A stretch of DNA of 64,000 nt from an uncultured Alphaproteobacteria bacterium (GTDB lineage: Bacteria > Pseudomonadota > Alphaproteobacteria > Rhizobiales > Xanthobacteraceae), in the NCBI GenBank assembly GCA_963734185.1, contig CAVTGA010000001.1, positions 386,711-450,710 on the forward strand. Direction: 5' to 3'. Both the position numbers and the translations under genes were made by a program. Within the stretch, counting starts at the first letter, position 1; each line of letters opens with the position of its first letter. The notes under the pieces are model-generated. The model was given only the letters and a program-made list of their open reading frames with translations, searched no databases and was not told the origin of the DNA. Positions 47,354-50,795 of the stretch are shown one piece after another.

Positions 47354-50300
47354 GTTCGGATCACCCGGCGAGGGCGGCGGCTCGAGTGGCTCGGGCGGTG
47401 GCGGCGACGCCGGTGCCGGCAGCGGCGGCGACGGTGGCGCGGGCAGCGGCGGAGACGGCGGCGGTGGTGGCGGAGACGGCGGCGGTGGTGACGGCGGCGG
47501 CGGCGCTCCGGTTGCCCTCGATCTCGATGGCGACGGCATTGAAATTACTCCGACGCTGTTCTCGACCGCGCTCTTCGATTTTGACCATGACGGTTTCCGC
47601 GAGTCCGCGGCGTGGATCGGCCCGGATGACGGCATCCTCGTCATCGACCTGGCCGCGGATGGCTCGGCCGGCCCTGATGGGATCATCAATCAGGATCGCG
47701 AACTGGTCTTCACCCGCTGGTCGACGGTCGCTACCAGCGATATGGCCGCATTGCGCGAGATCTTCGACACCAATCAGAACGGCCAGCTCGATGCCGGCGA
47801 TGTCCGTTTCAGCGAATTTCGCGTCTGGCGCGACACCGACCAGGACGGGTTAACCGATTCCGGAGAGGTGAAAACCCTGGGCGAATGGGGAATTGCCAGC
47901 ATCGGGCTTCACCCGACGGCGGAGCCGGTGGACTTCCGCGAGGGAACCCGCGTCGCAGGGTACTCCTCCTTCACACGCGCAGACGGTTCGACCGGAACGG
48001 CGGCCGACGTGAGACTCGGATTTGACCCGAACGGCTACCGGGTGTTTCAACGCTCCGATGGCTTCGAGATCAATCGCGAGAACGGCGCTGCGGAGCGTTA
48101 CTTTGTCGCCCATGAAGGCAGCGGGCCAGTCACGCTCAATCTTGGGCCGATTGCCTATTCTGGAGCCATCGGCAGTGACGCCAGCGACATTTTCATCGCC
48201 GCAATCGACCGTCCCAGCTTCATCGCCGGCAACCTCGGCGACGACATCATTGTGGGCGGAGCAGAGAACGACGTACTGGTCGGCGGCAGCGGAGCCGACC
48301 AGCTATACGGAGGAGTGGGCAGCGACACGCTGATCGCGGAAATTTCCGACGCCGTCATCGACGGTGGTGCCGGCTTCGATACCGTTCGATTCGTCGGCGC
48401 CGGCGCAACATTCGGTCTTGCCGCGCACGCCGTCGAAGCCGCATTCGGAACCGAGGCTGCAGATTTCCTCGACGCATCCGGTGTCGTCGTTGCAACGTTG
48501 GTCGGGGGCGGCGGTGATGACGTGCTGATCGGCGGCTCGGACTCCGATATCCTGAACGGTGGGGACGGAAACGACGTCATTCACGGCGGCGCAGGCGGCG
48601 ACTTCGTCATCGGCGGCGCCGGTTCGAACGAGCTTTTCGGCGAAGGCGGCAACGATGTCGTCGCCGATGGAGCTCACGGCAGCCTGATCGACGGCGGAGA
48701 CGGCGACGATGTATTGATCGGCGCAGCCGGCAACGACGTCATGGTCGGTGGAGCCGGTCGCGACGTCGTCGATCTGTCAGGTAATCGCTCCGACTATTCC
48801 ATCGTCTATAACGCGGGAACCGCGACATCTACCGTCAGTGACCTGCGCGTGGGCGACTCGGACGGCATCGACACGGTGAGCGGGGTCGAGGTCTTCGAGT
48901 TCTCCGACGGTTTCGAGACCTACGACACAGCCGGTCACCTGATCCTGCAAACGCTGAACGCCGCCGACGGCTCGAAGCGGGTGATCGCCTACGGCACCGT
49001 CGGCGTGGCGCTCGCCGGCACCGCGTTCAACGACGTGCTGACCGGAGCCGCCGGCAGCGATGCATTGACCGGCGGCGCCGGCGCCGATGTGATGGCCGGC
49101 GGGGCGGGCGACGACTACTATCAGGTGGATAATCCGGGCGACCAGGTGATCGAGCGGCCGGGCGAAGGCCGCGACACGGTGCATGCCTGGGTGGGCTTCA
49201 CGCTCGGCGACAACGTCGAGGTCCTGGCGCTCGGCGCCGGCGCCGGCGCGATCTACGGCATCGGCAACGCGCTTGACAACTGGATCGAGGGCAACGAGAG
49301 CGCCAACTACCTCTATGGCGGCGGCGGCGGCGACACGATGGAGGGCGGGGGCGGCGACGACTACTATCAGGTGGATAATCCGGCCGACCGGGTGACCGAG
49401 CGGCCGGGCGAAGGCCGCGACCTGGTGCATGCCTGGGTGGGCTTCACGCTCGGCGACAACATCGAGAACCTGGCGCTCGGCGCCGGCGCCGGCGCCATCC
49501 ACGGCATCGGTAACGCGCTCGACAACTGGATCGGCGGCAACGAGAGCGCCAACTACCTCTTCGGCGGCGGCGGCGCCGACGCGATGGAGGGCGGGGCCGG
49601 CGACGACTACTATCAGGTGGACAATTCGGCCGACCGGGTGACGGAGCGGGCGGGCGAAGGCCGCGACCTGGTGCATGCCTGGGTCGGCTTCACGCTTGGC
49701 GCGGAGATCGAGGTGCTGGCGCTCGGCGCCGGCGCCGGCGCCATCTACGGCATCGGCAATGCGCTCGACAACTGGATCGGCGGCAACGAGAGCGCCAACT
49801 ACATCTACGGCGCCGGCGGCGCCGACACCATGGAGGGCGGGGCCGGCGACGACTACTATCAGGTGGATAATCCGGGCGACCGGGTGACGGAGCGGGCGGG
49901 CGAAGGCCGCGACCTGGTGCATGCCTGGGTCGGCTTCACGCTCGGCGACGACGTCGAGAACCTGGCGCTCGGCGCCGGCGCCGGCGCCATCTACGGCATC
50001 GGCAATGCGCTCGACAACTGGATCGGCGGCAACGAGAGCGCCAACTACATCTACGGCGCCGGCGGCGCCGACACCATGGAGGGCGGGGCCGGCGACGACT
50101 ACTATCAGGTGGATAATCCGGGCGACCGGGTGACGGAGCGGCCGGGCGAAGGCCGCGACCTGGTGCATTCCTGGGTGGGCTTCACGCTCGGCGACGACAT
50201 CGAGAACCTCGCGCTCGGCGCCGGCGCCGGCGCCATCCACGGCATCGGCAACGCGCTCGACAACTGGATCGGCGGCAACGAGAGCGCCAACTACCTCTTC

Positions 50301-50795
50301 GGCGCCGGCGGCGCCGACACCATGGAGGGCGCGGCCGGCGACGACTACTATCAGGTGGATAATCCGGGCGACCGGGTGATCGAGCGGCCGGGCGAAGGCC
50401 GCGACCTGGTGCATGCCTGGGTCGGCTTCACCCTCGGCGACGACATCGAGAACCTGGCGCTCGGCGCCGGCGCCGGCGCGATCCACGGCATCGGCAACGC
50501 GCTCGACAACTGGATCGGCGGCAACGAGAGCGCCAACACCATCTACGGCGCCGGCGGCACCGACACCATGGTCGGCGGCGCCGGCGACGACTGGCTCGCG
50601 GGCGGCGAGGGCACCGACACCGCGGTATTCTCCGGCGCGCGCCTCGACTATGCGGTCACGTTCGACGCGGCGGCGCAAACCTACACCGTGGCGGACCATC
50701 GCGCCGGCGCGCCCGACGGCAGCGACAGCGTCACCGGCGTGGAGCTGTTCCTGTTCGCCGACCGCACGGTGCACCAGTGGGAGCTCCTCGGCTAG
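47352..50795 (+). CDS. giant secreted calcium-binding repeat protein (RTX/β-roll GGxGxD repeats plus six 82-aa tandem repeats); the frame is open from 47352 but the first ATG is at 47742, so it is probably fused upstream by a frameshift
   Basis: The frame has no stop from 46461 onward. The conserved, clearly coding sequence GGGSSGSGGGGDAGAGSGGDGG…APVALDLDGDGIEITPTLFSTALFDFDHDGFRESAAWIGPDDGILVIDLAADGSAGPDGIINQDRELVFTRW lies upstream of the first ATG (MAALREIF at 47742) and contains no ATG, GTG or TTG start. Downstream are haemolysin-type repeats (GGAENDVLVGGSGADQLYGGVGSDTLI…) and 6 × GGAGDDYYQVDNPGDRVTERPGEGRDLVHAWVGFTLGD…. The last ~60 aa are a C-terminal T1SS-like tail. Confidence 0.6.
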   Translation, partial: EFGSPGEGGGSSGSGGGGDAGAGSGGDGGAGSGGDGGGGGGDGGGGDGGGGAPVALDLDGDGIEITPTLFSTALFDFDHDGFRESAAWIGPDDGILVIDLAADGSAGPDGIINQDRELVFTRWSTVATSDMAALREIFDTNQNGQLDAGDVRFSEFRVWRDTDQDGLTDSGEVKTLGEWGIASIGLHPTAEPVDFREGTRVAGYSSFTRADGSTGTAADVRLGFDPNGYRVFQRSDGFEINRENGAAERYFVAHEGSGPVTLNLGPIAYSGAIGSDASDIFIAAIDRPSFIAGNLGDDIIVGGAENDVLVGGSGADQLYGGVGSDTLIAEISDAVIDGGAGFDTVRFVGAGATFGLAAHAVEAAFGTEAADFLDASGVVVATLVGGGGDDVLIGGSDSDILNGGDGNDVIHGGAGGDFVIGGAGSNELFGEGGNDVVADGAHGSLIDGGDGDDVLIGAAGNDVMVGGAGRDVVDLSGNRSDYSIVYNAGTATSTVSDLRVGDSDGIDTVSGVEVFEFSDGFETYDTAGHLILQTLNAADGSKRVIAYGTVGVALAGTAFNDVLTGAAGSDALTGGAGADVMAGGAGDDYYQVDNPGDQVIERPGEGRDTVHAWVGFTLGDNVEVLALGAGAGAIYGIGNALDNWIEGNESANYLYGGGGGDTMEGGGGDDYYQVDNPADRVTERPGEGRDLVHAWVGFTLGDNIENLALGAGAGAIHGIGNALDNWIGGNESANYLFGGGGADAMEGGAGDDYYQVDNSADRVTERAGEGRDLVHAWVGFTLGAEIEVLALGAGAGAIYGIGNALDNWIGGNESANYIYGAGGADTMEGGAGDDYYQVDNPGDRVTERAGEGRDLVHAWVGFTLGDDVENLALGAGAGAIYGIGNALDNWIGGNESANYIYGAGGADTMEGGAGDDYYQVDNPGDRVTERPGEGRDLVHSWVGFTLGDDIENLALGAGAGAIHGIGNALDNWIGGNESANYLFGAGGADTMEGAAGDDYYQVDNPGDRVIERPGEGRDLVHAWVGFTLGDDIENLALGAGAGAIHGIGNALDNWIGGNESANTIYGAGGTDTMVGGAGDDWLAGGEGTDTAVFSGARLDYAVTFDAAAQTYTVADHRAGAPDGSDSVTGVELFLFADRTVHQWELLG
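49100..50585 (+). repeat. six near-identical 246-bp tandem repeats (coding, 82 aa each) inside the RTX-like gene
   Basis: gacgactactatcaggtggataatccgggcgacc recurs at 49110, 49356, 49602, 49848, 50094 and 50343, a 246-bp period with about 95% DNA identity between copies. Confidence 0.8.

What the first reader, a model, noticed from the sequence alone, without database searches (positions are those of the whole stretch)
49100..50585. Six near-identical 246-bp in-frame tandem repeats within the RTX-like gene
About 95% nucleotide identity between copies implies very recent expansion or ongoing concerted evolution. Such arrays vary in copy number between strains and can cause assembly collapse. 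Each 82-aa unit pairs a GGxGxD Ca-binding turn with a conserved YYQVDNP(G/A)DRV(T/I)ERPGEGRD motif of unknown function.
Basis: seen in the sequence. Interest (0 to 1): 0.5.

Follow-up and report, generated by a model that had tools for sequence, protein, structure and literature searches.

The report
Homogenised RTX beta-roll repeat array
The six 246-bp repeats are real, but they are an ordinary, locally expanded run of a very common 82-residue calcium-binding RTX module, and the gene that carries them appears to be split by a frameshift from an upstream self-cleaving Hint domain.

Summary
Six in-frame 246-bp units lie at 49071-50546, with a 46-bp partial seventh and no indels. Pairwise identity is 88-96% (mean 92%), not about 95%.

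The 82-aa unit is not an unknown motif attached to one Ca turn. It is the local version of a very widespread RTX super-repeat, found in more than 30,000 protein clusters with up to 60 copies per protein. The motif YYQVDNPGDRVTERPGEGRD reads as two further degenerate nonapeptide turns. AlphaFold gives an all-beta model with a short strand about every 9 residues (pLDDT 87), and its best PDB matches are RTX beta-rolls.

The units group by genome. Their site patterns are heavily mosaic. Relatives carry 4 or 5 copies of the same unit type. Substitutions avoid the positions conserved across the family. This fits concerted evolution under structural constraint, not one very recent burst.

The annotated start at 47742 cuts into a conserved domain. 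Removing one G from the GGGG at 47318-47321 joins the gene to an upstream ORF that has a hydrophobic N-terminus, a proline-rich linker and a bacterial intein-like Hint domain. That architecture exists in single proteins elsewhere.

Verdict: a new member of a known kind, of low interest.

The parts
49071..50546 (+). Six in-frame 246-bp (82-aa) units W1-W6, with boundaries at 49317, 49563, 49809, 50055 and 50301
   Evidence: TRF, the repeat finder, translation and identity matrices
50547..50592 (+). Partial seventh unit (GAGGTDTMVGGAGDD), after which the sequence diverges
   Evidence: TRF array end at 50592; the seventh 246-bp frame is only 39-44% identical to the others
50601..50795 (+). C-terminal domain of about 60 aa (DYAVTF...VTGVELFLFAD...) plus the stop codon. 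It is presumed to carry the T1SS signal. A second copy of the domain lies at about 48747-48941
   Evidence: Internal duplicate at 46-48% identity; 89% identical to the C-termini of P0002 and P0148; up to 12 copies in P0050. The AF2 model has low confidence here
48219..48746 (+). Block of canonical RTX nonapeptide repeats (about aa 160-335 of the annotated ORF)
   Evidence: Pfam PF00353, 10 stretches, best stretch at aa 163-197
47742..50795 (+). ORF as annotated in public data (1017 aa, identical to P0001). Its ATG lies inside a conserved domain
   Evidence: Homology to P0002 continues upstream of the ATG in the same frame
47133..47741 (+). Same frame, open for 203 codons with no ATG, GTG or TTG. 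It encodes a Gly/Ser/Asp-rich linker and the start of the PF26745-type domain (PVALDLDGDGIEI... from 47508)
   Evidence: Frame translation; tblastn of P0002 aa 281-521 onto 47424-48107; PF26745 is precomputed for P0001, P0002 and most hits
47318..47321 (+). GGGG run, the candidate site of a 1-nt frameshift. Deleting one G gives a single 1593-aa ORF running 46013-50795
   Evidence: The shift must lie between the Hint C-terminal Asn (47305) and the frame-2 stop (47353)
46802..47305 (+). Hint / bacterial intein-like domain, from Cys264 (S|CFPADTP) to His-Asn431 (VHN|A)
   Evidence: Weak Pfam Hint hits; TIGR01443 intein_Cterm 16.4 bits against a cutoff of 15.6; AF2 pLDDT 83; Foldseek top hits are BIL domains 6y75 and 2lwy, then inteins
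46031..46801 (+). N-terminal Ala/Gly-rich hydrophobic region, then a PGPGPSPD proline-rich linker (46460-46780, encoded by imperfect DNA repeats at 46470-46699)
   Evidence: Translation, TRF, ATG 46031 following an AT-rich intergenic stretch
48777..50774 (-). Antisense 665-aa ORF, judged not to be a gene
   Evidence: GC1 0.916 and GC3 0.706 mirror the sense frame

Best explanation
The array is a lineage-specific, partly homogenised run of six copies of a common 82-residue RTX super-repeat.

Structure of one unit. Each unit reads as eight beta-roll half-turns. The first four are Asp-type nonapeptide turns: GxGGxDTME, GGAGDDYYQ, VDNPGDRVT and (ER)PGEGRDLVH. Two longer non-canonical segments of 15 and 11 residues follow. 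The last two are Asn-type turns, GNALDNWIG and GNESANYLF.

Inferred function. In calcium the six units are inferred to fold into a stack of about 24 beta-roll turns. This stack would lie between the canonical RTX block and a C-terminal domain that probably carries a type I secretion signal. By analogy with characterised RTX domains, it would stay unfolded in the low-calcium cytosol and fold outside the cell. It would then act as an internal chaperone, secretion ratchet and length-setting spacer for the N-terminal part of the protein.

DNA dynamics. At the DNA level, 88-96% identity over a 246-bp period allows unequal crossing-over and gene conversion. These processes keep the units alike and change their number.

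Shown: the repeats, family membership, the all-beta short-strand model with RTX-type fold matches, the mosaic site patterns, clustering of units by genome, and constraint on family-conserved positions. Inferred: calcium binding, type I secretion, and the spacer and folding role.
For: - Repeats.
- RTX identity: PF00353 at E=9.4e-58. Two units match the N-terminal repeat region of the NCBIfam EglC model at E=1.1e-24.
- Widespread module: 119 of the 120 best homologues carry 2-17 near-full-length units. phmmer with one unit against 1.84 billion representative proteins finds 30,466 at E<=1e-3 and 5,823 at E<=1e-30. Matches cover residues 1-81 at 45-55% identity, with up to 60 stretches per protein.
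- Conserved positions: D6, D15, D24, D35, E50, N66, N70 and N79 are invariant across 31 three-unit segments.
- Fold: AF2 of W4-W6 plus the C-terminus gives pLDDT 87.2 and pTM 0.81, all-beta, with short strands about 9 residues apart. The best PDB matches are the CyaA RTX domain (7rah_E, E=5.5e-4), RTX lipases, serralysins and RsaA.
- Concerted evolution: W1-W6 form their own clade. The distal units of P0002 and P0148 intermix and number 5 and 4, while their six proximal units pair one-to-one. 82 of 136 informative site pairs show four gametes.
- Constraint: only 2 of 27 family-conserved positions vary among W1-W6, against 21 of 55 other positions (Fisher p=0.0037). Mean dN/dS is 0.63.
- Similar DNA arrays elsewhere: 246-bp arrays occur in Pseudomonas and Aliigemmobacter loci.
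- General RTX mechanism: PMC6891781 and PMC3034196.
Against: - No HlyB, HlyD or TolC-type genes were found among 30 large ORFs of the window, and the C-terminal signal is not recognisable by any model. Secretion is therefore inferred only.
- As assembled, the gene is not a clean ORF. The ATG at 47742 truncates a conserved domain, and the natural continuation upstream is in another frame. The array may therefore sit in a pseudogene.
- dN/dS of 0.63 indicates relaxed constraint.
- The tool returns no model coordinates, so I could not check the calcium-site geometry, or whether the six units form one straight rod or pack against each other.
Confidence: 0.75

Rival explanations
1. The array sits in a dead gene. 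On this reading the frameshift near 47318-47321 is real, the RTX part is no longer made in its proper context, and the repeats are drifting.
For: The upstream Hint ORF and the RTX ORF are in different frames. The RTX frame has no start codon for 203 codons upstream of an ATG that lies inside a conserved domain. dN/dS among units is 0.63.
Against: There is no stop or indel anywhere in the 3-kb RTX frame or in the array. Substitutions among units avoid family-conserved positions. A single extra base in a homopolymer is also a typical consensus error of long-read assemblies, and the public contig is 3.13 Mb.
Confidence: 0.25
2. The copy number or the sequence of the array is an assembly artefact, through collapse or false expansion.
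For: 246-bp units share identical runs of up to 93 nt, which short reads resolve poorly.
Against: Every pair of units differs at 9-30 sites with unit-specific substitutions. There are no indels and the frame is kept. False duplication would give identical copies. Relatives have arrays of similar size.
Confidence: 0.07
3. The units are ligand-binding modules (for polysaccharide or a surface) and copy number tunes avidity, so they are not a passive folding or spacer beta-roll.
For: The same module precedes GH16 glycanase domains (EglC model; P0044 and P0080). Non-canonical RTX rolls that bind ice and diatoms are known (PMC6891781). The positions that vary among units include charged and aromatic residues.
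Against: The module accompanies many unrelated partners, including M10 peptidases, GH16, Ig-like, cadherin, FG-GAP and Calx-beta domains. This fits a generic secretion and folding module better. No binding-site signature was found.
Confidence: 0.15

Closest known systems
Canonical RTX beta-roll (Pfam PF00353; serralysin/AprA, RTX lipases)
   Same: GGxGxDxUx nonapeptides. The model is all-beta with short strands about every 9 residues. The best fold matches are RTX proteins.
   Different: The unit here is an 82-residue super-period. Only four of its eight half-turns are Asp-type, two are Asn-type and two are longer non-canonical segments. The whole super-period is tandemly repeated at 88-96% DNA identity.
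Multi-block RTX domain of Bordetella CyaA (PDB 7rah, 7usl, 6sus)
   Same: These are the only PDB sequences matched (E about 1e-3) and the best fold hit. Blocks of nonapeptides are separated by non-canonical linkers that share the ...ENL.G..L.D.I.G... pattern.
   Different: CyaA has five long, mutually diverged blocks, an adenylate cyclase domain and acylated pore-forming domains. Here there are six short, near-identical blocks and no toxin domains.
N-terminal repeat region of rhizobial T1SS glycanases (NCBIfam NF052454 EglC; ExsH-like)
   Same: Two units align to profile positions 49-137 at E=1.1e-24.
   Different: The whole-protein score is 258.9 against a cutoff of 700, and there is no GH16 catalytic domain. 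It is not an EglC equivalog.
Giant repetitive RTX adhesins (LapA, MpIBP, Legionella RtxA)
   Same: Tandem, nearly identical extender repeats whose number varies, with RTX repeats near the C-terminus. (This description rests on my own knowledge and on PMC6891781 and PMC11264772.)
   Different: Their extenders are Ig-like beta-sandwich domains of about 100 aa, not beta-roll units. No N-terminal retention module or LapG-type site is evident here.
Bacterial intein-like (BIL) / pretoxin-HINT domains in secreted proteins
   Same: The upstream ORF has Cys1, a C-terminal His-Asn, no +1 nucleophile and a Hint fold. RTX proteins with Hedgehog/intein homology were already noted in PMC3034196. BIL properties are described in PMC7765530.
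   Different: In this assembly the Hint domain is separated from the RTX part by a frameshift. What follows the Hint is an RTX array, not a toxin domain.

Membership tests
RTX protein family | Tandem glycine- and aspartate-rich nonapeptides (GGxGxDxUx) | tested here: met
   PF00353 at E=9.4e-58 with 10 stretches. Each 82-aa unit contains two canonical and two degenerate Asp-type nonapeptides.
RTX protein family | Parallel beta-roll fold | tested here: met
   AF2 pLDDT 87.2, all-beta, strands about every 9 residues. The top Foldseek PDB hits are RTX domains. This rests on a prediction only, and global TM-scores are low (0.3 or less).
RTX protein family | Calcium binding and calcium-dependent folding | not testable with these tools
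   Inferred from the invariant Asp/Asn at position 6 of the half-turns.
Type I secretion substrate | Uncleaved C-terminal secretion signal | tested here: inconclusive
   RTX repeats are followed by a 60-aa C-terminal domain that is 89% conserved in P0002 and P0148. No model for a T1SS signal matched.
Type I secretion substrate | Cognate ABC transporter, membrane fusion protein and TolC genes nearby | tested here: not met
   None found among 30 large ORFs of the window. Linkage is not obligatory, for example S. marcescens lipA (PMC3034196).
EglC/ExsH endo-1,3-1,4-beta-glycanase (NF052454) | Whole-protein score at or above the curated cutoff, and a GH16 catalytic domain | tested here: not met
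   258.9 bits against a cutoff of 700. Only the N-terminal repeat region of the profile is matched, and there is no GH16 Pfam hit.
Array evolving in concert (homogenised tandem repeats) | Units are more alike within a genome than between genomes; copy number differs among relatives; site patterns are mosaic | tested here: met
   W1-W6 form their own clade. Copy numbers are 5, 4 and 6. 82 of 136 site pairs show four gametes. The comparison with relatives is at protein level only.
Bacterial intein-like / Hint domain (upstream ORF) | N-terminal Cys/Ser nucleophile, C-terminal His-Asn, and Hint fold | tested here: met
   Cys264 and His-Asn431. TIGR01443 scores 16.4 against a cutoff of 15.6. Foldseek hits BIL 6y75 at E=5e-9 and 2lwy at TMt 0.84. 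Pfam Hint models score below their gathering thresholds.
True intein | Cys/Ser/Thr at +1, and insertion in a conserved site of a conserved host protein | tested here: not met
   The +1 residue is Ala (VHN|A). The flanks are a proline-rich linker and a glycine-rich linker.

The most novel reading that the evidence does not exclude
The true gene is one polypeptide of about 1,593 aa. In it, an A-type BIL (Hint) domain cuts a calcium-folded beta-roll rod (PF26745 domain + RTX block + 6 x 82 aa) free from an N-terminal hydrophobic, proline-linked anchor. This would be a self-releasing surface or secreted protein. On this reading the one-base change in the GGGG run at 47318-47321 is a real on/off switch, not a sequencing error. 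The conserved, host-like 3' array plus C-terminus (GC3 0.9) would be a secretion cassette onto which foreign 5' parts (GC3 0.7) are recombined.
Probability: 0.12. Interest if true: 0.5.

Novelty: new member of a known kind. Interest (0 to 1): 0.2.

Why it matters
For annotation, three points follow.
- The public 1017-aa gene model is probably truncated.
- The repeat unit belongs to a very large module family that the libraries I searched cover only through the generic nonapeptide model.
- The copy number of the array should be treated as a strain-variable character.

Biologically, the array is a clear small example of concerted evolution in a structural repeat. Edge and proximal units are stable, while the distal block is homogenised and varies in number. 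Nothing here changes how RTX proteins are understood.

Tried and rejected
- Close relatives at the DNA level. A genome-contig scan gave at best 46% identity and a metagenome-contig scan at best 47%. Exact look-ups of the contigs encoding P0001 and P0002 returned nothing. Cluster look-up gave no names. As a result, strain-level copy number and synonymous divergence between genomes could not be measured. Only protein-level relatives (P0002, P0148) were usable.
- A solved structure of the module. None exists by sequence search.
- A dedicated family model. Pfam and NCBIfam give only generic RTX hits or partial hits to RTX enzymes. PF26745 is not in the local Pfam copy, so its description could not be read.
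- Higher-order periodicity (2- or 3-unit blocks). I considered this because W2 and W5 are similar. I rejected it because W3 and W6 are only 91% identical.
- Antisense ORF 48777-50774. Rejected as a gene from its codon-position G+C.
- Literature on BIL plus RTX and on EglC/ExsH. The searches gave only general statements.
- Membership in EglC, serralysin, RTX-toxin or LapA-type adhesin families. Rejected (see the membership tests).
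Full report
**Observation.** Tandem Repeats Finder reports a single array at 49070-50592: period 246, 6.2 copies, 93% matches, no indels, score 2540. An independent repeat search gives six copies spaced exactly 246 bp apart. In the frame of ORF 47742-50795(+) the units are six blocks of 82 codons at 49071-50546. A 46-bp partial seventh unit follows and runs into an unrelated C-terminal domain. Pairwise nucleotide identity is 0.878-0.963 (mean 0.922) and amino-acid identity is 0.83-0.93. The + strand is coding: GC3 is 0.925 in the array, compared with 0.939 in groEL. The 665-aa antisense ORF mirrors this composition and is not a gene. No other copy of the unit exists in the window.

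**What the unit is.** Pfam recognises only the generic RTX nonapeptide model (E=9.4e-58). NCBIfam aligns two units to the N-terminal repeat region of the EglC glycanase model (E=1.1e-24), far below that model's whole-protein cutoff. An HMM built from the six units finds 2-17 near-full-length copies in 119 of the 120 best homologues. Those proteins also carry M10 peptidase, GH16, Ig-like, cadherin, FG-GAP or Calx-beta domains. A phmmer search with one unit against 1.84 billion representative proteins finds 30,466 proteins at E<=1e-3, 17,099 at E<=1e-10 and 5,823 at E<=1e-30. Matches cover residues 1-81 at 45-55% identity, with up to 60 stretches in one protein.

The family consensus is GGAGADTMxGGAGNDTYxVDNxGDxVxExAxEGxDTVxSSVSxTLGANVENLTLTGxAAINGTGNALxNxLxGNxxANxL. 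The window's YYQVDNPGDRVTERPGEGRD is the local form of TYxVDNxGDxVxExxxEGxD. The family-invariant Asp residues D6, D15, D24 and D35 are spaced 9, 9 and 11 residues apart, and N70 and N79 are 9 apart. The unit therefore reads as eight half-turns:
- four Asp-type nonapeptides (GxGGxDTME, GGAGDDYYQ, VDNPGDRVT, (ER)PGEGRDLVH);
- two longer non-canonical segments of 15 and 11 residues;
- two Asn-type nonapeptides (GNALDNWIG, GNESANYLF).

On this reading, which is an inference from spacing and the model, the 'motif of unknown function' is two further degenerate RTX turns.

**Fold.** I predicted W4-W6 plus the C-terminus with AlphaFold2, using an alignment of 30 three-unit segments from homologues. 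The model has pLDDT 87.2 and pTM 0.81. It is all-beta with short strands about every nine residues. Confidence is low only in the last 30 residues. The best Foldseek matches in the PDB are the CyaA RTX domain (7rah_E, E=5.5e-4; also 7usl and 6sus), RTX lipases, serralysins and RsaA. Global TM-scores are low, and no solved structure contains this module by sequence. This agrees with the published picture of RTX domains as blocks of six to eight nonapeptides separated by divergent linkers (PMC6891781).

**How the array evolves.** 46 of 246 sites vary, spread over codon positions 1, 2 and 3 as 11, 16 and 19. Mean dS is 0.115 (range 0.05-0.23), mean dN is 0.073, and dN/dS is 0.63. The first unit is the most divergent. 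Of 136 pairs of informative sites, 82 show all four gametes. The units are therefore mosaics produced by exchange and do not form a simple duplication tree.

Two relatives carry the same unit type and the same C-terminal domain (89% identical): P0002 (1706 aa) and P0148 (2181 aa). Their six proximal, diverged units pair one-to-one. Their distal, near-identical units intermix and number five and four. The window's six units form their own clade, sister to that distal block. Within the window array, only 2 of 27 family-conserved positions vary, against 21 of 55 other positions (p=0.0037). The structural positions are therefore under purifying selection. DNA-level 246-bp arrays of the same module also occur in Pseudomonas (four copies, 88%) and Aliigemmobacter (3.2 copies, 95%) loci, so local expansion recurs in this family. 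Together this supports ongoing concerted evolution under structural constraint and does not support a single very recent burst.

**The gene around the array.** The annotated ATG at 47742 (the public protein P0001 is identical) lies inside a conserved domain. The same frame is open back to 47133 without any ATG, GTG or TTG. It encodes a Gly/Asp-rich linker followed by PVALDLDGDGIEI..., which is homologous to P0002 and to many proteins whose precomputed Pfam family is PF26745.

The ORF immediately upstream (46013-47353, probable ATG at 46031 after an AT-rich stretch) is in another frame. It encodes an Ala/Gly-rich hydrophobic region, a PGPGPSPD linker and a Hint domain from Cys264 to His-Asn431, followed by Ala. 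The evidence for the Hint domain is:
- weak Pfam hits;
- TIGR01443 above its cutoff;
- an AF2 model with pLDDT 83;
- Foldseek top hits to BIL domains (6y75, E=5e-9; 2lwy, TMt 0.84), followed by inteins.

Deleting one G from the GGGG run at 47318-47321 produces a single 1593-aa ORF. Proteins with Hint followed by the PF26745 domain in one chain do exist. These are P0268, whose alignment is colinear across 80% of the repaired query, and P0269, P0270, P0294 and P0302. P0148 combines a Hint domain 47% identical to the window's with the same repeat array and C-terminus. The array-bearing gene is therefore most likely a Hint-RTX fusion that is frameshifted in this assembly. I cannot tell whether the cause is a homopolymer error or a real mutation. 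RTX proteins with Hedgehog/intein homology have been noted before (PMC3034196), and BIL domains self-cleave at their ends (PMC7765530).

The gene is also compositionally mosaic. GC3 is 0.66-0.76 from 46031 to about 48730 and 0.83-0.95 from there to the end. Identity to P0002 is 34-39% in the N-terminal and RTX parts but about 80-89% in the units and C-terminus. The 45.0-46.5 kb region upstream has only 53-54% G+C.

**Secretion context.** No HlyB, HlyD or TolC-type genes were found among 30 large ORFs of the window. Unlinked T1SS genes are known for other RTX proteins (PMC3034196). groEL places the organism in or near the Xanthobacteraceae, with 93-95% identity to the best hits, the named ones being Xanthobacteraceae MAGs.

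**Mechanism and rivals.** I favour the following explanation (0.75 for the structural identity, lower for function). The six units form a calcium-dependent beta-roll stack that folds after export. It serves as an internal chaperone, ratchet and spacer for a type I secreted protein. The repeat DNA undergoes unequal crossing-over and gene conversion. The rivals are:
- the gene is a pseudogene (0.25);
- the units are ligand-binding modules whose number tunes avidity (0.15);
- the copy number is an assembly artefact (0.07, which is unlikely because every unit has private substitutions).

**Comparison and verdict.** The array works like other RTX beta-rolls and is closest in organisation to the multi-block CyaA RTX domain. 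It is not an EglC glycanase, a serralysin, an RTX cytolysin or a LapA-type adhesin (see the membership tests). It is a new member of a known kind. The finding is real but ordinary. The most useful by-products are the corrected gene model and the recognition that the 82-aa module is a very large family covered only by the generic nonapeptide model in the libraries searched here.

Noticed in passing
window 46013-47741 (frameshift candidate at 47318-47321): The ORF upstream of the RTX gene carries a bacterial intein-like Hint domain (Cys264...His-Asn431). A one-base shift separates it from the RTX frame, which is open for 203 codons without a start codon. Removing one G gives a 1593-aa ORF. Hint+PF26745 and Hint+array proteins exist as single chains elsewhere.
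   Followed up: yes
window 46031-50792; also 45000-46500: The gene is compositionally mosaic. GC3 is about 0.66-0.76 up to about 48730 and 0.83-0.95 in the array and C-terminus (groEL 0.94). The region just upstream has only 53-54% G+C. This suggests a foreign 5' part joined to a resident 3' cassette, or GC-biased conversion in the repeats.
   Followed up: partly
window 48747-48941 and 50601-50792: A second repeat type of about 60 aa (DY..V....Y.V.D...G.DG.D.V.GVE.F.F.DG) occurs twice in the protein, once mid-protein and once at the C-terminus, at 46-48% identity. It is present up to 12 times in other proteins such as P0050.
   Followed up: partly
window 46470-46699 and 47394-47505: Imperfect DNA repeats with 24/30/54-bp periods encode a PGPGPSPD proline-rich linker. 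A run of about 37 GGC-like triplets encodes a Gly/Asp-rich linker. Both are likely to vary in length.
   Followed up: no
window 51915-54209 (-): A CHASE4-GGDEF-EAL (c-di-GMP turnover) gene lies just downstream on the opposite strand. Any link to the RTX protein, as in LapD-type control of RTX adhesins, is untested.
   Followed up: no
window 54340-55996 (-): A proteasome-subunit-like ORF (54340-55464) lies next to a transglutaminase-like ORF (55163-55996). A large ORF without Pfam hits follows at 56021-58717. This may be a conserved peptide-modification cluster.
   Followed up: no
window 48777-50774 (-): A 665-aa antisense ORF spans the array. Its codon-position G+C (GC1 0.92, GC3 0.71) mirrors the sense frame, so it is a by-product of high G+C and the repetition.
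   Followed up: yes
L002 11069-11861; L006 12050-13041; L029 12083-13080: Other genomes (Aliigemmobacter aestuarii and two Pseudomonas) also have 246-bp DNA-level arrays of the same module, with 3-4 copies at 88-95% matches. This indicates independent local expansions.
   Followed up: partly
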